Shown piece by piece: positions 27,831 through 64,000 of a stretch of DNA of 64,000 nucleotides. The position numbers and the translations under genes are program-made. Position 1 is the first letter of the stretch; every line of letters begins with the position of its first letter. Below the pieces are notes generated by a model that was not told where the DNA came from, made no database searches, and worked only from the letters and a program-made list of their open reading frames with translations. Origin of the DNA: Rhizodiscina lignyota (taxonomy: Eukaryota). Location of the stretch: the NCBI GenBank assembly GCA_010015805.1, contig ML978138.1, forward strand, positions 248,001-312,000, in the 5' to 3' direction.

Positions 27831-30800
27831 ATGCGGATCGGTATTCGTGAACAGTTAGGCGCTCTTGTCTTAATATCCTCTTTAATCGGCGTAGCAGTCG
27901 TAGCAATTGCAACATGGGTATGGGAATCCGCCCTACAACAAATTTCAAATGCAGACACTGACACAATGGACGTTAGACCACCAATCGTTCATTTGTGCTG
28001 AGCGTCAGGTACGAATCCCGATTGTTATGGCAATGTCAAGATGCCAATGCTGATCTTCCATCACAGCAATTCGCGACTCTCCCTTACCGCATCCCTGAAA
28101 TCCGCGCAGCTCTCGACCGACCTCATGCTAATGCAATCGAGCGTGCGTTCTACGACGTCGAGACTTCTCCTGCAAAGTTCGCTCATGCGCTATAATCAAA
28201 TGGGAAACAACACCCTGCAGTGCGTTGCAAATATCTGATAAGACGGGGAAGGATTGAGCTGACGACTTATAGAAACTGGATTCGTCCAATACAAGACCTT
28301 CAGACTGCGCTGTCCTCTTCACCCGGCGCTCTTGGCTATCAAGGAGCGGTACTCCCCTTGAATGGAACGGCTCCCATCAACGACACTGCTGGATTTGCTG
28401 GAGAAGGCTTCCTGATGAATACCACAACCACAGGCGTTATAGGCATGATAGAACTGCCGACGAGATATTCAGATGGCTCACCCGTCTTTCTCGGCGATAA
28501 CACCACGTTGGGCTATCCTCGGAATCTGTATCCCAACCTTACATATAGCCAGGTCCACATCAACAAGACCTTCAAGCAATCCGTGGCAAGCTACAATGGC
28601 CAACCTCTCGACACAACCCATGGCCTTCTCCTCGGGCCCTGGTTTATAAACGACACTTTTTCTTTGATCTCCATCACGATGCCCATCATAAACAATACGT
28701 CAGCCGTCGATATCCTCGGCTGGCTTACGATCGTCATGTCTGGTCAGCTAATCTCCAACGTGGCATCTTCTCCTGAAGGCCTTGAGAACACCGGCGTCGC
28801 TCTCATTGTCGGTCCAGCGAATGCAACAAACCATTTCCCTCGAAATACCACCTGGCAGAACAACAATGGCAGCGCCCCCCAAACAGAGAGTGTCCACTTC
28901 GTCATCCCGGCCAACAACACAGGAAATCGACATCCAGATCATGCGTCTATATCGAACAGTCCCCCTTTCGATTACAATAGCTATCCGGCAGTTAAGGCAG
29001 CATTCACCAAGAACAGTCACGGCATTAACAATGCTGGGAGCTCCATCGATACACATAACGAACAAGGTGATCACGTGGCCGTCGGCTATGCTATGGTTAC
29101 CAGCACGCTTGTGGACTGGGTCATTCTCGTCGAGCAGTCGCACGGGGAAGTGTGGGCTCCAATATCACATCTCCGGAACATCCTCCTCGCGTGCGTTTTT
29201 GGAACCGCAGGCGCAATGCTACTTCTAGCGTTTCCAATTGCACACTTTTCGAGTCTGCCCATTCGGAGATTACGCGATGCGACGAAGAAAAGCATCGCTC
29301 CGCCGGGATTTGAAGAGGATGGTAATAGCATCGTTTCTTCACATCATGGCAACAGCAGTGATGACGATGCTGCGGCACAAGCCGCGCATAAAGAAGGTTT
29401 CTATGGCGCACTGTCACGATGGCGTACAGGGAAGAAGAAGTCGGATACCGAGCGCTCTGAGGCTGCACGGCGGAGGGGTTTCAGAATTCCGGCCAAGGTG
29501 AAAGAGAGGAAGCATATTGTGCAGGATGAATTGACGGAACTGACAACTACTTTCAACGAGATGACGGACGAACTCATGATGCAGTACGAAAAGCTAGAAG
29601 AGCGGGTCAAGCAGCGTACTGCGGAGCTGGAGTTATCGAAGAAGGCGGCCGAAGCGGCGAACGAGAGCAAGACGCTGTTCATTGCGAATCTAAGCCACGA
29701 GCTCAAGACACCGCTGAATGGCATTATGGGCATGTGCGCAGTCTGCATGAGCGAGAGGGATCCTGCGAAAATCCAGAAGAGTCTTGGGATCATCTACAAG
29801 AGCGGTGATTTACTGCTGAACCTGCTGACGGATCTCCTGACTTTCAGCAAGAACCAAGTGGGACAGCATCTTACGCTCGACGAAAAGGAGTTCCGTCTCC
29901 GAGACGTTTCGGCGCAGGTCCTGGCCATCTTCGACAAGCAGGCGAAGGAGGGCTCTATTGGCCTACACATACGGTACGAAGGACCACAAGACGCGAATAT
30001 GAACGATACTGGCCAGCTGAGTGAGAAGCGCGATCTTGGGCCGTCTGGCACAGGCAGAGTCAAGGATATGATTCTTTGGGGCGATCAGCATCGAATTCTG
30101 CAGGTTTTGATCAACCTCGTATCCAACAGTTTGAAATTCACTCCACCAGGCGGCAGCGTGTCTGTTACTATTCGTTGTATTGGCGACGCGCAACCATCTG
30201 ATAGAGCTTCCAGCAGGAAGGGCTCGACGAATTCTAGGGGCTCAAGGAACCTGTCTGGCAGAAACAGCAGAACTAGAGTGGGACATGGCTCAGACGCCAG
30301 TTTCATCTCGTCCCAGAAAAACCTGAGCACCGCCCTCGAAATCAATGCCCTAGACTCAAAACCGGCTGCGCAGTTCATGATGAACGAGCGATCAGATTCC
30401 CCACCAGCAGGCCGAAACTTGATGTTCGAATTCGAAGTCGTAGATACAGGCCCCGGAGTGCCGGAGAGTCAACAGCAGCGCATCTTCGAGCCATTCGTAC
30501 AAGGCGACCTGGGTCTCAGCAAGAAATACGGTGGCACTGGTCTAGGTCTAAGCATTTGCTCACAACTCGCAACGCTCATGAAGGGCACTATCGGAATGAC
30601 GAGCGAAATGGGACACGGCAGCACCTTCACGATGCAGATCCCGCTGAGGCACATCATGTCACGAGCAGATAGCACGAGCAGTAGCACCGTCGACCCTGGA
30701 AGCAGGAGAAGTAGTTTGGAAGATGCTGCAGCAGCTTTAGGCATCGCTCGGTCTGAGACCGGAACGCCCATGTCTGTCCTTCCTCCACAGAGCGTTGCAT

Positions 30801-31628
30801 CCAGCAACGGCGGCGTAGACTCGAAACCGAGACTGGTGGGGCTCAGTCAGCCGTTCTTCGCAGCGCCGGCCCTCGATACGGCGGAAAACCGGATCACGGT
30901 TATTGAAAGAGCAGCGGCAGAGGCTAGCGAGAAGGGCGTGAAGGTCAAGGTGTTGGTGGCGGAAGACAATAAAACGAATCAAGAGGTTGTGCTCAGGATG
31001 TTGAAGCTGGAGGACATCTTCGACGTTACTGTCGCGCAAGGTAAATTATCCAAGTTGTTTGGTGTGGACGAAGAAATCAGCTAACAGGTCCGCAACAGAT
31101 GGCCAAGAAGCATACGAGCGTGTCAAAGAGTCCATGGAATCACAGACCCCGTACAATCTCATCTTCATGGACGTCCAGATGCCCAACCTCAATGGCCTCG
31201 AATCCACGAGACTGATCCGGCAAACCGGCTACTCGGCGCCCATCGTCGCGCTCTCGGCGTACTCGGAGGATAGCAACATCAAGGAGTGTCTCGAGAGCGG
31301 CATGAACGACTTCATTTCGAAGCCTATCCGCCGACCGCGATTGAAGCAAGTCCTCAAGACATTCTGCAGCCCAATCCCAGAGGAGGTGGAAGAGAAGGAC
31401 ACTACGCCAGGTCCTGCAGCATCGGCGCCAAAGCCTGGAGGCAGTGCTTCGACGACATCCACGAAAGTGGAAACGATGGGGAATGCGAACCCGCCGATGA
31501 CGACGATGGTAAAGCCGCCGACTCAACGGAAAGAAGGGGATCCAGGAGGTGGATCGAAAGCCCCGAATGGGCCGAACGGACCGAAGAAAGAGGGGCGGCC
31601 TGAATCTCCTGTCTCGCCACTCTCGTGA
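27831..31628 (+). CDS. SLN1: Membrane hybrid histidine kinase, group VI (Sln1/TcsB)
   Basis: [16 protein letters not shown], extracellular domain, second TM, HAMP-like [14 protein letters not shown]-box [18 protein letters not shown] boxes ([22 protein letters not shown]). Receiver VLVAEDN..FMDVQMP..PIVALSA..KP is split by intron 31041-31098. Confidence 0.93.
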
Positions 31629-32388
31629 TGAAGTGTGCTTCTCGGCTTCGATTTACTTCCCGATTCGGTTTTTTCGGTTAATGATATGAATCTGTAATTG
31701 ACGGCAAAAAAGGATTAGCAAGGCGCTCGTGCGGTTTCTTATTTCCTCCTCTGCCCTTTTTGAAGGGCGGGAGTGATTTCAGACTTTTGTGGAGTTCTTT
31801 GCGAAGAAACATTGCATTTGGATTGGGCAAACGTAAAAAGCACACGGGTCTACGCATCGGACTTGGTCTGGCGTCTTTGCGAAAAGCGCACAGCAGATAA
31901 AAAGGGAGTTTGCTGGATGTTTTTGATCTCTTCTCGCGTAGCATTGGTAACATTTCGTTTTCTGTGTTATAGCTCTCACGGCTGCGAGTTCGAGAGCACG
32001 GGATGGCGAGGGTGGGAGGCTATGATGGGATGTGAGCATGGCGGACACCTAGCGAGATTCGAGCACTCTCGGAGAAATGCAGAAGATGTTCGTAAATGTT
32101 TGCCTCCGGCGTTGAGGGTGCGAATCGTGACCGCAAGTGATGTAAATGAATTCGTCGGCGTTGACTTCTCGCTCCGCTAAAAAGGACTGGAGTCGTATGA
32201 CTTTGTAGAAGTACGAAATAGAAACGTGTTTCGGTTGCTAAGGAGTTACGTCAGTTTCATTGCCCATTTCGTCCTTTCCCATACAATGAGCTTGGATTTA
32301 TCAATCGAGGCAAGTTGCTAGGAGGCACTGAGAGGTTCAGAGAAGGACTCCGAACACTTGACAGTTTGGAAGAGTGAACTGTGCTGGC

Positions 32389-32840
32389 TAGAGTTTCAAA
32401 CCCTAAAGTAACATTTCTTCAGAGCGAAGTGTTTCCATGAGGGGTTCCAAACCCTATGGTAACAGTTCTGTAGAGTGGAGTGTTACCGCTAGGGTTATCA
32501 ACCCTAAAATCACACTTTCGCTGACTGACATGATACTCTCTAGGGTTCCAACCCTATCTCACATTACTTCTCCGCGTGTTGTCAGATTTTAGGGCTTCAG
32601 TAGTGCTCGCAACCTCTAATACCAATAAGTAACAGCCATACGGAGTTTGATAACACGTTTCGCAAAATAGGGTTGAGAACCCTAAGTAACAGTTTTGCAA
32701 AAGTGAACTGTTACCCACTAGGGTTCAAAAACCCTAAGGAACACGTTTTTCTGACTGAACTGATACGTCTAGGGTTAGCTAATTTCAAACCCTAATTCAT
32801 GCCTATGTCAGGTCAAACTCAGCTTAAAAAGGGTTAGGGC
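32389..32840. repeat. Degenerate ~50-51-bp tandem array of double palindromes with telomere-like arms
   Basis: TAGGGTT-Nx-AACCCTA or near variants start at 32389, 32440, 32490, 32541, (32590, half site), 32668, 32719 and 32770. Intervening segments carry GTAACA(GTT)...(AAC)TGTTAC, perfect at 32686-32714. Confidence 0.9.
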
Positions 32841-33910
32841 TATCTAGAGTCTCTCTCAGCCTCGTCTCCTCAGCCTCGTCTCGTCAGTCTCAGTCCTACA
32901 TCCGCCGCAAAGAAACTGAACATCATCAAGGCTCTAGTCGCTAATGCCTAGTATACCTAAGGCAGAAGTGCTTCAATCCAAAGCGATCCTATCAAGCCTC
33001 TCGAACGCCCGACTCGGTTGAGCTATTCTTCGAGCAGGGATGGCGCTCCTTCGCCTTCGGCCCCCAAAACGAGTCCACGTCGGAGGCTCGAATACATCGA
33101 AAATAAGCCACCACATCTGCACGATAGGCGAGTTTTCAGTTGTTTCGCGTATTTAGTTTCGTAGATAAATTGGCTGGGAACAGCATTGATCTCGTTTACA
33201 CGCGAGGCTGGGAGGATAATATGTATTTCGCTTTCGAAGTTCCACACTCCGCAAAACGTGTCGACGGAGCAGACGGTAGAAAACTGCTTTGCTGGATCTT
33301 CACAAAGTCTTAACACCCTTTCAGTAATAACAAATATAGCATCAACTCAGAAAGGTAAAATACTGGTTTTGTGCAGAGCTCGCTCATCAAGCTTGAGATA
33401 AAGGGCGCAGTAAGAGCCGCGTCCACCCGGGTGGCTTGCAGATGGTTACGAATGTGATTTGCTCTCGAAGAGGCGCGTCTGGAAGCGTATAGCCAAGACC
33501 GGCCACGGCAGTGAAGCTGAAAAGAGGATAGTGAAGCTGCATTGCCATTATACAGGTATCTCCTGATGTGATCAGAAGCGAGTTCGGAGCAGAAAGCGTA
33601 CTTTCACACTCTCGACCGCTTTGTAGCCCAAGCGCAACTTCTGGTGCAAAATACGAAGGTCGTATGTACCATGAAACGCATGCAAACCCACGCGGACTCG
33701 TTCCGCAGATGAATCAAACTGAATTGAATCTTTCACCATTTTACAACTTCTGTGAAAGGGATAATATGGACAGTGCTTGAACGCTTGAAATCTGGAATAA
33801 AACTGGTAGACCATACTTGGTCCACGAATGTGAGAACACGAAGAAAAGAGATATGACCATAGTATCATGACGAGTCAAACACCAGCGTACGCCTGATCCA
33901 CATTCTCTCC

Positions 33911-35728
33911 TCAACCATAAACAGGATGATGACTTTGTGCCGGCATCTCGTGAACCTGGTTCGGACCAGAGAGGAGTTCCGGTGCGTGTAGTTCGGAGGG
34001 TGTGCTCTGCTGCATGGGCTGAACAGGAGCACCAGCGTATTTCGCATCGTAATGTCGGCCTGTGTCCGCGAGCTCGGATTTCGAATCGCGCTGATTCCTG
34101 CGTCGCCTTGCTAGCAGGAACGCCCCGACTGCCGCTGCGATGAGCAGTATTCCACCAACAGCAACTCCAACTCCAATGCCCGCCTTTGCGCCTGTTGAGA
34201 GTCCAGAGCTACCGCCAGTGCTACTACTATGGTCGGCGCTGGACGATCCGCTTGAGCCGCTCGTGTCGCCGCTCGCCGTGCCACCGCTGGAGTTGCCGCC
34301 GCTGGAGCTGCCACCGCTATTCGACTTGCTGTCGACAGGTAGAGGGGTCCAGTAACCTGTCCAGCTCCTGTTGAATGCTCCAGTGTCAGAAACTATGGCG
34401 GTCGGGTCAGGGAACTGGTCGCTATCATCGAGGTCTTCATAGTCCGCGTTCCCGAGGCCGTTCTTCGTTGTTCCTGGACCGGGTGCTTGCGCGATCCATG
34501 CAGAGTTCAATCGGAGGTTTGCCCCGAAGAACGCGGCTTGCAGAAACGCGCGACCGAGTCTGTAATCGCCAGGGTTTGATGAAGTGGATGTATCGAGGCA
34601 AGGGAAGTATGGTGTCGGTGTGTCTGTGATTCCGATATCCAGGGTCAGATTCAACAGCGAAAACGGAACCTTGATGATGACGTTATCACTTTCACCGGTA
34701 GCTGGAGGAAATGTGAGGCTGAGGTACGCGGGAGAGTTGATGATTTTCTGGAAACTTGGGTCGCTTGTCTTCCAAAGGTAGTACTTCAACGTATTGTCGA
34801 ATTCGATAGGTAGCACTTTCGCCAATGCCTGGCACGTCTTGTCTGGTAGATGAAAATACGGCATCTGAGGATCCACGCCAACGTTCAACTGGCCTGTCTT
34901 GCTGTTGTTCAGTGTGAGCAGACCGCTCTTGTCGGTGAACGAGAACGGCGACGCGCCAGTCTCTACACCGATGCCAATATCAAGTAAAGTGAGGCTGTAC
35001 TGGGCATCGTGAGTAAACGTCGTGATGGGACCGATCATTCGACTCTTGTCGTAACCGCCGAGAACAAGAGACCCGGGGTATCCGAGTGCAGCGGAACCCG
35101 AGTGCAAGCCGAAGCTATATGAAGGGATGTCGCCATTGTTATAAAGCCCTCCGATCATGATGTTTGTCAGTACCGATGGCTCGTTTGGCGCGGTCGTAAA
35201 GGTCTGGTGTGTTTGCTGATTGCCGAGAGAGAAGAATCCAAGCTCTGGTCCGCGCGTGGAGCCGTCGGGATTGACTATGGTTGCGTTCTTTATCGTCGCC
35301 AAAGACGCGTTGTAAGTTGTGAAATTGCCATCCGCATTGTTCGCATACACCGAGATGGCTTGGATGATATAAGGATCGTTGTCTCCGCTCTCGTACGGCG
35401 TGCCGTCACCCCAGCCTGCCTCGATGGCAATCTGATAACTGAACTCGTCCTCCGCTGGCGTCCAGAAACCACCGCGTCCACATTGCGAGTCGGAATATGA
35501 GTCGCAAACATCTGGAGCAAGAACTAAACATTCCCATGCGCCTCCAGGAAGAAGATCGACCTTTGTCTGTGCGGTGCTGATGTCGTAGTAGGACTCATTT
35601 CCGCCGACACTGACTGTGATGGCATTCCAAGGACCGTCAGGCCCATATATCCTCTGGCTCCATTGAATGGCGAGATTCTGTTTACCCACAGCAGCGACAA
35701 CAAAGGAGAGGAAGATTAAACCCCACAT
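33911..35728 (-). CDS. Pepsin-like (A1) fold type-I membrane protein with degenerate catalytic motifs
   Basis: Signal peptide MWGLIFLSFVVAAVG, YGPDGPW, IPSYSFGLH, GSLVLGGYDKSR, LGRAFLQAAF, AQAPGP, Ser/Gly linker, TM GLSTGAKAGIGVGVAVGGILLIAAAVGAFLL-ARRRR. Confidence 0.85.
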   Translation of the reverse strand: MWGLIFLSFVVAAVGKQNLAIQWSQRIYGPDGPWNAITVSVGGNESYYDISTAQTKVDLLPGGAWECLVLAPDVCDSYSDSQCGRGGFWTPAEDEFSYQIAIEAGWGDGTPYESGDNDPYIIQAISVYANNADGNFTTYNASLATIKNATIVNPDGSTRGPELGFFSLGNQQTHQTFTTAPNEPSVLTNIMIGGLYNNGDIPSYSFGLHSGSAALGYPGSLVLGGYDKSRMIGPITTFTHDAQYSLTLLDIGIGVETGASPFSFTDKSGLLTLNNSKTGQLNVGVDPQMPYFHLPDKTCQALAKVLPIEFDNTLKYYLWKTSDPSFQKIINSPAYLSLTFPPATGESDNVIIKVPFSLLNLTLDIGITDTPTPYFPCLDTSTSSNPGDYRLGRAFLQAAFFGANLRLNSAWIAQAPGPGTTKNGLGNADYEDLDDSDQFPDPTAIVSDTGAFNRSWTGYWTPLPVDSKSNSGGSSSGGNSSGGTASGDTSGSSGSSSADHSSSTGGSSGLSTGAKAGIGVGVAVGGILLIAAAVGAFLLARRRRNQRDSKSELADTGRHYDAKYAGAPVQPMQQSTPSELHAPELLSGPNQVHEMPAQSHHPVYG

Positions 35729-36865
35729 ACTGGGCAGAGCGAAGGGAGAGCACGATGTAAGAGAGGAAAGTGAGAGTCGCATCAATGGGAAAGAGAGGTA
35801 GCGAACCAGGCTGCACGGTTTGGGAAGAGATCGGGTCCCAAGACGAGAGACTAAGAGAGTCAAGACACTTCCCCGCGGGCAACAGTTGCCAGGGCCCAAG
35901 CACGCGAAAACAGTTTGACGTGGTCGTGGATGTGGTAAGGCTTAACTGTGCTCAGAGCCGCGCCTTCACGCCTCTGGAAATTACGTTCACCATCTCGAGG
36001 CTTGTGCACCAGCGCTTTCTTTTCACGCGTGCACACCCATCGTGTGCCTCTGGCAGTAATAACCACATCTCATCAATTGCTCTCGCCAACCACGGTCTCA
36101 CAGAAGTGCCAGAACGGTCCGGAGGTGAAGTGGGCGAGCCATCGCTGTGGGATTAGGATGCTCGTGGATGGCATTGTGGAAAGGATAGGGGTGAAAGCAC
36201 AGCCAAATGGGCGTGTTGGTCGCCTAACCATTGGCTCTGCATCGGCCATGATGCATCTGGCCGCAGGTGAAGTGGCCGAGTGGCGAGAAAGGCAATCCTT
36301 CAGCGCCGGAGCGTGAAGTGAGTGGTCGATTCTAAGCCCCGTTCGCTGCGGCGCCCGCGCCAAGCCATGCCCTTCTGTTCTCGTTCTCGTGGTTGAGCGG
36401 GCGGGCCGGCGAGCGAGCCTAGCCATCTGCGCTACAGCAGGGCGGAGGATGGAGATCCATGCTGCGAAACGGTCGAGTTTGGCGTGGAAAAGAGGCGCTA
36501 GGTCGCGCTGGGCGTGGTGGAGTGCAATGTCTGCTTAGTGGCATGGCCCTGCGGCTCCTGCCGAAGCATACAAAGACCACCTATGCTACAAGGCTATGCT
36601 CCATGAAGCGTAACCGCGAGGCTGAATTAAAACAAGCTCATCCCTCTAACTGCCAGCCCTATTGACCACCGTTGGGGGCGGAAATTGTTCCTAACCCTCA
36701 TTTCCCATCCAGCTTTTGTCCGTCCTTTCGCGCAATTTGCTCTCGTCCAACCTCTCTCCACCTCGTCAGCGCGGAGTTTTATTCCGCCTACTGCAGCCTG
36801 GGCACCGCTCCCTGAACAACGCCGCGTCCGCGGCGGGATCCTTGAAACCTACATCACCACACGCC

Positions 36866-62995: not shown

Positions 62996-64000
62996 CCTGT
63001 GGGCGGCATAGATCACCAATACCTCCATTGGCTGATGTTGTATCACCCCTGCCGCTTGCCTTATACCAACATTTGAGCAGGATGAACCGAAGCAACAGAG
63101 GTATACCTCATTAGGGAAGCCGGGAGGTATCGCAAGGCGAAATATGCTGGTCACGCTACCCGCACGCCCTGGCGGACAATCGTAATACTTTAGGGCGGCG
63201 AAGTAAACAGGCCTTCAGCCCGGCCATACTCACCGAGAAGGTTAACCCACGAAGTCGCGTCTCATCAAAAAACCACCTCATTCCCGCCGTATCCTGACGG
63301 ATTCAGCCAACTGCCAAATTCAGGCACAACATTCTTGGTCTTCGGAAATTGGCAAGAAGACTTGCACATCCTTCGTTAGCCCTATCGTACAGCCGAATCT
63401 CCTATCTGCCTAGATCGACAATTTATCTCTTGCATCATCCCGCCTTCTGCGGGGGTAGGGTTATTGAACCGGCTGGGTAAACGTTAAACCTGCTCGTGCT
63501 TTTCGTGGCATGTGGGGCATCACCCAGCAAAACAAAAGAGTAAGGCAGCATGTCTCTATCAACTATCGAGAACGGTTCTGTTTCCTGATCCATGCGTCCC
63601 ATAGGTTGCTTTCGAGAACCTGGAGAAGCCGAACGAGATATTCATATTTTTATAGCGCCTCAACACGATGTCACGATCAAATTCCTTTGATAAGACATAT
63701 CGCTGTCTTCAAGTTCCAGGAGCAGTGTCCTTACCAGTCAGCTCACGTTCATGTCGCCTTGCCCGCTCCTCCTCTCAATATTCAGATATGACTACATATT
63801 TCGTATTACTTCGATGTTCAAGGTACATAAGGGCGAAGTTTGGACAGAGCTTAGGGTTTCTCCTGCATGTACTTTATATAGTATTAGGCTAGTCCTATAT
63901 AGGGATAGTCTAGCCCAATGAAGCTAGCAACATAGATATCTCAGGAATAGGATTAAATCATCTATCCAGAAAAAGTAGTAGCCGGAATAAGTAATTCACA

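What the first reader, a model, noticed from the sequence alone, without database searches (positions are those of the whole stretch)
32389..32840. Phased array of telomere-motif palindromes interleaved with a second palindrome, in a convergent intergenic region
Seen: TAGAGTT-TCA-AACCCTA (32389), AGGGGTT-CCA-AACCCTA (32440), TAGGGTT-ATC-AACCCTA (32490), TAGGGTT-CC-AACCCTA (32541), half site TAGGGCT (32590), TAGGGTT-GAG-AACCCTA (32668), TAGGGTT-CAAA-AACCCTA (32719), TAGGGTT-N11-AACCCTA (32770), then GGGTTAGGGCTA (about 32831). Start spacing is 51, 50, 51, 49, 78, 51, 51 bp. The ~33-nt segments between them hold a second inverted repeat, perfect as GTAACAGTT-N11-AACTGTTAC (32686-32714) and GGTAACA..TGTTACC (32458-32487). 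Loops vary while the palindrome arms are kept. Blocks 32459-32556 and 32686-32794 look like a higher-order duplication (both have ctgactga..tgatac..ctagggtt). The array lies between the 3' ends of SLN1 and the pepsin-like gene, so it is not an obvious protein-gene promoter. Known: TTAGGG is the Pezizomycotina telomere repeat, and telobox/Myb proteins (Tbf1, Tay1) bind such motifs. Inference: conserved arms, free loops and a fixed period of about 5 helical turns suggest selection. Candidates are a phased array of sites for two dimeric DNA-binding proteins (insulator, origin, or mobile-element subterminal repeats) or a repeat-structured ncRNA processed into hairpin units. It is neither a head-to-tail interstitial telomere nor a CRISPR.
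Basis: partly seen in the sequence, partly recalled or inferred. Interest (0 to 1): 0.85.

Follow-up and report, generated by a model that had tools for sequence, protein, structure and literature searches.

The report
Phased array of telomere-motif palindromes
A non-coding gap between two converging fungal genes holds about eight evenly spaced copies of a small palindrome made of the telomere motif; the motif has stayed intact while the DNA between copies has decayed, so it looks like a docking platform for a telomere-repeat-binding protein.

Summary
In window 32389-32842, eight TAGGGTT-loop-AACCCTA palindromes (five perfect, two with 1-2 mismatches, one decayed) start 49-51 bp apart, apart from one 78-bp step and one 61-bp step. 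This is a degenerate 51-bp tandem repeat with a ~102-bp higher-order unit. Twelve of the 15 perfect TAGGGTT words in the 64-kb window lie here.

The arms are nearly invariant: 3 of 98 cells differ from the column majority, against 100 of 252 in the spacers (Fisher p 6.5e-14; 0 of 20,000 ascertainment-corrected simulations did as well). Information content is a sharp 7-bp block, the core of the YTAGGGTTR half-site of TRF-type Myb dimers.

The "second palindrome" is significant in only 2 of 8 spacers and shows no covariation, so neither a second dimeric protein nor a hairpin RNA is supported. The locus is single-copy in a 34-Mb read assembly, with no transposon features.

The organism is Rhizodiscina lignyota or a very near relative. 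No close relative's DNA could be reached, so there was no orthologue test and no RNA data.

Best reading (0.5): a selected array of sites for a TTAGGG-binding Myb protein (Tbf1/TRF-like). Its role is inferred to be a boundary or barrier. Main rival: an old neutral minisatellite.

The parts
32389..32405 (.). Palindrome 1, TAGAGTT-TCA-AACCCTA (1 mismatch in the left arm)
32440..32456 (.). Palindrome 2, AGGGGTT-CCA-AACCCTA (2 mismatches in the left arm)
32490..32506 (.). Palindrome 3, perfect, 3-nt centre
32541..32556 (.). Palindrome 4, perfect, 2-nt centre
32590..32619 (.). Palindrome 5, decayed: TAGGGCT, 14-nt centre, AACCTCTAA. It is followed by a 48-nt spacer, which gives the 78-bp step.
32668..32684 (.). 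Palindrome 6, perfect, 3-nt centre
32719..32736 (.). Palindrome 7, perfect, 4-nt centre
32770..32794 (.). Palindrome 8, perfect arms, 11-nt centre
32829..32842 (+). End of the array: AAGGGTTAGGGCTA, the only head-to-tail telomere-like piece (10 nt of perfect repeat). The next bases, CTAGAGTC, repeat the start of unit 1.
   Evidence: (D10)
32458..32487 (.). A-type spacer with inner palindrome GGTAACA..TGTTACC
   Evidence: 4/500 shuffles
32686..32714 (.). A-type spacer with perfect inner palindrome GTAACAGTT-N11-AACTGTTAC
   Evidence: 1/500 shuffles
32507..32540 (.). B-type spacer (..CTGACTGA..TGATAC..), not palindromic; paralogue of 32737-32769 (69% identity)
32737..32769 (.). B-type spacer, paralogue of 32507-32540
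32849..32891 (.). Separate 14-bp tandem repeat (GTCTCCTCAGCCTC, 3 copies) abutting the array
28196..31628 (+). Left flank: hybrid histidine kinase (HisKA, HATPase_c, Response_reg), SLN1-like; its 3' end faces the array
33914..35782 (-). Right flank: peptidase-A1-like membrane protein gene; its 3' end faces the array
33312..33408 (-). Candidate box C/D snoRNA in the same non-coding gap (C UGAUGA, D' CUGA, C' UGAUG, D CUGA, 9-bp outer stem). The array lies downstream of it, not upstream.
   Evidence: all Rfam scores below the gathering thresholds

Best explanation
The array is an old 51-bp tandem repeat with a ~102-bp higher-order unit. Only one part of each unit is kept by selection: a pair of inverted TAGGGTT half-sites about one helical turn apart. 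That 7-mer is the core of the duplex telomere-repeat site read by TRF/Tbf1-type Myb domains, and those proteins bind as homodimers to two half-sites. The array therefore most likely works as a row of about six to eight docking sites for the fungus's TTAGGG-binding Myb protein (a Tbf1/TRF-like dimer; Tay1 is the alternative).

Shown: the motifs, the period, the arm-versus-spacer contrast, single copy, and a non-coding convergent setting.

Inferred: which protein binds and what follows from binding. My guess for the role is an orientation-independent chromatin element in a 3'-3' gap. The bound, nucleosome-free block would separate the converging transcription units and could also pause replication forks. 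Palindromic sites read the same from both sides, which fits such a place.
For: - Enrichment: 5 perfect palindromes against 0 in 100 shuffles. 9 of the window's 11 YTAGGGTT lie in 406 bp.
- Constraint: 3/98 arm cells are off the column majority, against 100/252 spacer cells (Fisher p 6.5e-14). None of 20,000 simulations that choose the best two 7-column blocks after the fact got below 8.
- Pairwise identity is 0.94 in the arms and 0.54 in the spacers; shuffled spacers give 0.47.
- Over 15 half-sites the information content is 1.6-2.0 bits at exactly 7 positions and below 0.3 bits at the flanking positions that do not belong to the partner arm. Position -1 is C or T in 11 of 15. This is a footprint-like profile.
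- Literature, passages read:
  - TRF1 dimers need two YTAGGGTTR motifs with free spacing and orientation (PMC3241663).
  - C. albicans Tbf1 requires a TTAGGG-N6-CCCTAA palindrome (PMC2834713). Here the gap between TAGGG and CCCTA is N6 once, N7 four times and N8 once.
  - TBF1 motifs are over-represented upstream of ribosomal-protein genes in A. fumigatus and N. crassa (PMC4138321).
  - Tay1 is widespread in Ascomycota (PMC7952879).
- Against the rivals: single copy, no coding potential in the gap, no RNA covariation.
Against: - There is one genome only. The nearest other sequenced relative seen has 47% protein identity, so conservation across species is untested.
- There is no binding, chromatin or RNA data.
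- The left end is eroding (units 1, 2 and 5), so constraint is not absolute.
- Centre lengths of 2-4, 11 and 14 nt do not fit a strict-spacing dimer such as C. albicans Tbf1.
[quoted passage not shown] This weakens the barrier part of the reading.
- The site is not upstream of a ribosomal-protein or snoRNA gene, where Tbf1 sites are known to act.
- Tandem arrays built on the same palindrome turn up in unrelated eukaryote contigs, where arms and spacers are equally uniform (young arrays L001, L100). Such arrays can therefore arise without function.
- A non-selective process that preserves the arms cannot be formally excluded.
Confidence: 0.5

Rival explanations
1. A neutral, ageing minisatellite. 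A palindromic 51-bp unit was amplified by slippage or unequal exchange and is simply decaying. The intact arms reflect an unknown mutational or conversion bias, or chance.
For: - It is a head-to-tail repeat with a truncated last unit that resembles the first (D10), and another tandem repeat abuts it.
- Units 1, 2 and 5 are eroded.
- Comparable arrays exist in unrelated metagenome contigs.
- An earlier scan finding (e1-556616) showed a palindrome-rich minisatellite to be ordinary.
Against: - With spacer-like decay about 19 arm cells should differ, but 3 do; 0 of 20,000 simulations matched this.
- The conserved block has sharp 7-bp edges that coincide with a known protein half-site.
- Conversion tracts would also homogenise adjoining spacer bases, and they do not.
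Confidence: 0.22
2. A remnant of a mobile element: the subterminal binding-site region of a DNA transposon, or a tandemised foldback/MITE unit.
For: - Short motifs in inverted pairs over a few hundred bp resemble transposase-binding subterminal regions (recalled, En/Spm type).
- A-type units are long imperfect palindromes, AACCCTA..GTAACAGTT..AACTGTTAC..TAGGGTT.
Against: - Only 1 of 15,746 contigs (34.2 Mb) lays on 31400-33800 at 80% likeness or more, and it is an unbroken 82,956-nt contig.
- No transposase or reverse-transcriptase Pfam domain among the 47 window ORFs scanned.
- I saw no terminal inverted repeats or target-site duplications at the array edges.
Confidence: 0.07
3. A structured non-coding RNA: a transcript of tandem hairpins processed into ~50-nt units, or part of a snoRNA host transcript running in from the right on the minus strand.
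For: - The region folds far better than shuffles (z -5.6 on +, -5.0 on -).
- A candidate C/D snoRNA lies 480 bp away on the minus strand in the same non-coding gap.
Against: - Both strands fold equally well, as any palindromic DNA would.
- RNAalifold keeps only the invariant arms plus 3 weak pairs, with a covariation term of -0.16.
- 5 of 8 spacers have no hairpin.
- No Rfam family reaches its threshold.
Confidence: 0.07
4. A scar of chromosome breakage and healing, or of a telomere-telomere fusion, later amplified. The G-arm-then-C-arm geometry is what two telomere-seeded ends joined head to head would leave.
For: The geometry is the same as the head-to-head telomere-repeat seams reported by earlier scan findings in bdelloid rotifers (e1-2577965, e1-2593376).
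Against: - Each arm is only 7 nt (1.2 repeats).
- The DNA between seams is homologous from unit to unit, so at most one event was then duplicated.
- It explains the origin but not why the arms outlast the spacers.
Confidence: 0.05
5. Part of the telomerase RNA gene, with CCCTAACCCT (minus strand, 32830-32839) as the template in a 2.3-kb non-coding gap.
For: - A 10-nt template-like word is present.
- The gap is non-coding.
- Pezizomycotina telomerase RNAs are long; N. crassa's is 2049 nt (PMC3592445).
Against: - By my own arithmetic, about 0.7 such 10-mers are expected by chance in 64 kb, and here it is simply the array's last unit.
- No Rfam match.
- No P6.1-like motif in the gap (the pattern was recalled, so this is a weak test).
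- Eight extra template-like hairpins next to a template would be without precedent.
Confidence: 0.02

Closest known systems
Palindromic Tbf1 element of Candida albicans ribosomal-protein promoters (TTAGGG-N6-CCCTAA; PMC2834713, passages read)
   Same: Two inverted telomere-type half-sites about one helical turn apart. The presumed reader is a TRF-like Myb homodimer.
   Different: Here there are 8 sites in a phased tandem array rather than one site per promoter. The gap is N6-N8, and N15/N18 in two units. The array lies between two 3' ends, with no ribosomal-protein gene nearby.
TRF1/TRF2-type recognition of two YTAGGGTTR half-sites (PMC3241663, introduction passage)
   Same: The conserved block is exactly TAGGGTT, preceded by C or T in 11 of 15 half-sites. 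Variable centres would suit a flexible dimer.
   Different: The sites are internal, inverted and dispersed, not a head-to-tail telomere tract. The R at the last position is not kept.
S. pombe RTS1 region B: ~450 bp with four repeated motifs bound by the Myb-domain protein Rtf1, a replication fork barrier (PMC10473836, passages read)
   Same: A ~450-bp single-copy block of repeated motifs for a Myb-type protein at a defined chromosomal place. This is the nearest analogue for how it might work.
   Different: The motif and the protein family branch differ. RTS1 is polar, whereas palindromic sites would act from both sides. No barrier activity is shown here.
Interstitial telomere repeats that nucleate H3K27 methylation in Neurospora ((TTAGGG)8 gives some, (TTAGGG)17 about 225 kb; PMC5752202, passages read)
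   Same: An internal cluster of 15 telomere-type half-sites in a Pezizomycotina genome.
   Different: The repeats here are not head-to-tail. The neighbourhood holds ordinary housekeeping genes, which a repressive domain would harm.
Ordinary minisatellites
   Same: A 51-bp head-to-tail unit with higher-order structure and a truncated end unit.
   Different: The units are 30-60% diverged except for one 14-nt part that is almost invariant.

Membership tests
Tbf1/TRF-type double telobox site | Two TTAGGG-type half-sites (YTAGGGTTR core) | tested here: met
   12 perfect TAGGGTT in the array and 15 half-sites with a 7-bp block of 1.6-2.0 bits
Tbf1/TRF-type double telobox site | Strict N6 palindrome spacing, as in C. 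albicans | tested here: not met
   Gap between TAGGG and CCCTA is N6 once, N7 four times, N8 once, N15 once, and about N18 in the decayed unit
Tbf1/TRF-type double telobox site | Lies upstream of ribosomal-protein or snoRNA genes | tested here: not met
   Lies between two 3' ends. No coding potential in the gap. The candidate snoRNA has the array downstream of it.
Tbf1/TRF-type double telobox site | Occupied by the Myb protein | not testable with these tools
   Needs EMSA or ChIP. The genome was not available to look for the protein gene.
Minisatellite | Head-to-tail unit of 10-100 bp, several copies | tested here: met
   Period of 49-51 bp for 8 units. TRF itself does not score it.
Minisatellite | Uniform decay across the unit (neutrality) | tested here: not met
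   Arms 3/98 against spacers 100/252 cells off the majority
Transposon end / MITE | Several copies in the genome | tested here: not met
   1 of 15,746 contigs laid at 80% likeness or more. Short or more diverged copies could be missed.
Transposon end / MITE | Terminal inverted repeats with target-site duplication | tested here: not met
   Nothing of the kind at the array edges
Hairpin-unit ncRNA | Base pairs kept by compensatory change; strand asymmetry | tested here: not met
   Covariation term -0.16; arms invariant; both strands fold alike
Head-to-tail interstitial telomeric sequence | Two or more tandem TTAGGG | tested here: not met
   Only 10 nt at 32830-32839
Telomerase RNA | Template plus P6/P6.1 three-way junction | tested here: inconclusive
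   A template-like 10-mer is present. No Rfam match and no recalled P6.1 motif in the gap.
RTS1-type fork barrier | Fork arrest that depends on the bound Myb protein | not testable with these tools
   Needs 2D gels or polymerase-usage sequencing

The most novel reading that the evidence does not exclude
A purpose-kept internal "mini-telomere platform". It would be a phased row of palindromic sites that loads the telomere duplex-binding protein at one euchromatic 3'-3' gap. There it would act as a two-sided barrier to transcription and/or replication forks, or tether the locus to telomere clusters. Because each palindrome has G-strand seeds pointing outward both ways, a break inside it would leave two ends that telomerase could heal. 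That would make it a candidate safe-break site.
Probability: 0.2. Interest if true: 0.75.

Novelty: new variant of a known kind. Interest (0 to 1): 0.45.

Why it matters
Internal sites for telomere-repeat-binding proteins are known as single promoter elements or as short head-to-tail tracts. A selected, phased array of eight palindromic sites between converging genes would be a different use of the same protein-DNA pair. If binding is confirmed, it offers a natural, compact test object for two questions. What do Tbf1/TRF-like or Tay1 proteins do away from chromosome ends in filamentous ascomycetes? Can dispersed, inverted half-sites trigger the chromatin effects that tandem TTAGGG tracts cause in Neurospora? 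If it proves neutral, it is a useful caution: a minisatellite can mimic a selected site array.

Tried and rejected
- Whole genome: none is held for this window. Genome-wide copy number and the presence of Tbf1/Tay1 genes could therefore not be checked directly.
- Sequencing runs: one holder only, near-identical and probably the source. No RNA holder is listed. Laying it showed a single contig and no variants.
- Earlier scan notes: nothing for this genome, nothing by sequence, nothing among relatives.
- Rfam: no match at gathering thresholds in the whole window. Only sub-threshold chance-level hits in the gap, including a "mir-224" hit that merely reflects the palindrome.
- tRNA scan: none found.
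  - 25 of 119 loci have 3 or more palindromes, and many of the 119 also carry ordinary telomere tracts.
  - BLAST of 32200-33000 against all 119 loci gave only matches of 22 nt or less, confined to the palindrome.
  - So these are not relatives. The set is pattern-selected and says nothing about frequency.
- Telomerase-RNA idea: a recalled P6.1-like motif gave 6 matches against 5.4 expected, none in the gap.
- Promoter idea: none of the 23 ORFs of 50 aa or more in 31630-33915 has clearly coding-like codon usage. They score -0.14 to 0.13 per codon; one 61-aa ORF at 0.13 falls inside the 0.07-0.30 range of the training genes. No C/D box candidate is placed so that the array would be upstream of it.
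- Roadblock idea: it is weakened by yeast data on Tbf1.
- Literature: searches found no description of such an array. One search returned 534 papers, of which only 20 listings were seen. The 4 papers of one search are unrelated by title and abstract.

Full report
**What is there**

Window 32389-32842 holds eight TAGGGTT-centre-AACCCTA palindromes. Five are perfect: 32490, 32541, 32668, 32719 and 32770. They are the only matches to TAGGGTT-N2-12-AACCCTA in 64 kb, and none of 100 shuffles had any. Two have 1-2 mismatches in the left arm (32389, 32440). One is decayed, with a long centre (32590 TAGGGCT ... 32611 AACCTCTAA).

Starts are 51, 50, 51, 49, 78, 51 and 51 bp apart, then 61 bp to a terminal AAGGGTTAGGGCTA. 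The array holds 12 of the window's 15 perfect TAGGGTT words and 9 of its 11 YTAGGGTT (1.84 expected). One-mismatch variants are not enriched window-wide (105 against 105.75 expected). The shorter TAGGG-N4-12-CCCTA also occurs only here (4 against 0.15 expected).

**It is a diverged tandem repeat**

Tandem Repeats Finder misses it. The repeat finder recovers the 51-bp period (D1 and D2). The sequence just after the array repeats the start of unit 1 (D10), as at the end of a tandem duplication.

Spacers fall into two types:
- A type: GTAACAGTT..AACTGTTAC.
- B type: ..CTGACTGA..TGATAC.

Blocks 32440-32560 and 32668-32798 align as a ~102-bp higher-order unit. Paralogous spacers are 69-71% identical.

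A sequence symmetric about two alternating centres is necessarily periodic. So "two interleaved palindromes" and "a tandem repeat of a palindromic unit" describe the same thing where both hold. The inner palindrome, however, beats shuffles in only 2 of 8 spacers (u6 1/500, u2 4/500). Unit 1 is weak and five units have none.

**The key result: arms against spacers**

| Measure | Arms | Spacers |
|---|---|---|
| Pairwise identity over seven units | 276/294 = 0.94 | 405/754 = 0.54 (shuffled 0.47, sd 0.05) |
| Cells off the column majority | 3 of 98 | 100 of 252 |

Unit 5 was left out of both counts because its right arm is ambiguous. The Fisher test gives p = 6.5e-14.

The arms were noticed because they are conserved, so I corrected for that. 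I simulated units at the pooled divergence and picked the best two 7-column blocks after the fact. The mean was 19.2 cells off and the minimum 8. None of 20,000 runs reached 3.

Over 15 half-sites the information content is 1.6-2.0 bits at exactly seven positions. It is below 0.3 bits at the flanking positions that are not part of the partner arm. The base before the block is C or T in 11 of 15. Centres differ in both sequence and length (2, 3, 4, 11 and about 14 nt).

**Context**

- Left flank: a hybrid histidine kinase on the plus strand, ending near 31628 (HisKA, HATPase_c, Response_reg).
- Right flank: a minus-strand gene ending at 33914. Its product is 96% identical over 97% of its length to a Rhizodiscina lignyota protein that UniRef names "Peptidase A1 domain-containing". 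The best match from another genus is Aulographum hederae at 47%.
- Organism: R. lignyota or a very near relative. No relative close enough for intergenic comparison was reachable.
- The gap: the 2.3-kb stretch between the two stop codons has no ORF of 50 aa or more with clearly coding-like codon usage. The 23 ORFs score -0.14 to 0.13, against 0.07-0.30 for the training genes.
- The wider window is ordinary gene-dense DNA with no transposon domains (39 ORFs scanned; the 8 ORFs likewise). It has no tRNA.
- Copy number: one run of assembled reads (34.2 Mb, 15,746 contigs, probably the source) lays a single unbroken 82,956-nt contig on 31400-33800 at 80% likeness or more, with no variants. The locus is therefore single-copy at that sensitivity.

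**Interpretation**

A 7-bp block with sharp edges, kept in both orientations while everything around it drifts, is what a protein footprint looks like. The block is the core of the YTAGGGTTR half-site. TRF1 homodimers need two of these, in any spacing and orientation (PMC3241663, introduction passage).

In fungi:
- C. albicans Tbf1 requires a TTAGGG-N6-CCCTAA palindrome (PMC2834713, passages).
- TBF1 motifs are over-represented upstream of ribosomal-protein genes in A. fumigatus and N. crassa (PMC4138321, passages).
- Tay1, a second TTAGGG binder, is widespread in Ascomycota (PMC7952879, passages).

Here the gap between TAGGG and CCCTA is N7 in four units, N6 in one and N8 in one. I therefore read the array as six to eight docking sites for such a protein, kept by selection (confidence 0.5).

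What the bound array does is inference. It is not placed like a promoter element. Palindromic sites work from both sides, which suits a gap entered by transcription from both directions.

The nearest functional analogue I found is S. pombe RTS1 region B. That is about 450 bp with four repeated motifs bound by the Myb-domain protein Rtf1, and it acts as a fork barrier (PMC10473836, passages).

Two observations count against a barrier role:
- In Neurospora, internal (TTAGGG)8 gives some H3K27 methylation and (TTAGGG)17 gives about 225 kb of it (PMC5752202, passages). A repressive domain would sit badly among the housekeeping genes here.

**Rivals**

- Neutral minisatellite (0.22). It fits the architecture and the eroding left end, and comparable arrays occur in unrelated eukaryote contigs. 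It does not explain the arm-versus-spacer contrast.
- Transposon remnant (0.07). It is contradicted by single copy and the lack of ends.
- Hairpin RNA (0.07). Both strands fold equally well (z -5.6 and -5.0). RNAalifold keeps only the invariant arms plus three weak pairs, with a covariation term of -0.16. Rfam gives nothing above threshold.
- Break-and-heal or fusion scar (0.05). It has the same G-arm-then-C-arm geometry as rotifer seams in earlier scan notes. But the arms are only 7 nt and the spacers are homologous, so at best it explains the origin.
- Telomerase RNA (0.02). It rests on a 10-nt template-like word that is just the array's last unit, and neither the Rfam searches nor a P6.1-like motif search support it.

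**Limits**

There is no genome for this window, no close relative, and no RNA run listed. Its 119 loci share nothing with the array beyond the palindrome. Supplements of the cited papers were not opened.

**Verdict**

The second protein, the ncRNA and the mobile-element ideas are not. It is a new variant of a known kind: a clustered, phased, palindromic version of internal telomere-protein sites. It rests on one locus in one genome.

Noticed in passing
window 33312-33408 (-): Candidate box C/D snoRNA in the non-coding gap. It has C UGAUGA, D' CUGA, C' UGAUG and D CUGA, plus a 9-bp outer stem GCGCCCUUU/AAAGGGUGU. The stretch before the D box matches 17 of the 19 aligned positions of the consensus of plant snoR43. 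All Rfam scores are below threshold (sR12 E 0.26, snoR43 E 6.6). No rRNA was at hand to test the guide.
   Followed up: partly
window 32850-32935 (-): A weaker second C/D-like candidate (UGAUGA ... CUGA, with a CUAGAG/CUCUAG outer stem) abuts the array. Its D boxes fall inside the 14-bp tandem repeat, so it may be an accident.
   Followed up: partly
window 32849-32891: A separate 14-bp tandem repeat (GTCTCCTCAGCCTC, 3 copies, 89% matches) lies directly after the array.
   Followed up: no
window 31628-33914: The gap between the two convergent stop codons is 2.3 kb, with lower G+C (0.43-0.49) than the genes and no coding-like ORF. This looked large to me for a convergent pair in this gene-dense window (other gaps were not measured), and it suggests unannotated non-coding transcription.
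   Followed up: partly
L001 1470-1690, L019, L116 (metagenome contigs): A 47-bp tandem array built on TTTAGGGTT-GY-AACCCTAAA palindromes (plant-type telomere motif) next to a (GGAA)n tract. Three contigs carry the same locus. It is unrelated in sequence to the fungal array.
   Followed up: no
L100 119-215; L030 200-470; L004/L117: Other unrelated tandem arrays with the same head-to-head telomere-motif palindrome: a 24-bp period in L100 and L030, and longer ATAC-TAGGGTT-N3-AACCCTA-GTAT palindromes in L004/L117.
   Followed up: no
window 63456, 63851-63858, 56250: The only three perfect TAGGGTT words outside the array. All are isolated single half-sites. 63851 reads TTAGGGTT and lies in an AT-richer stretch at the window's end.
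   Followed up: no
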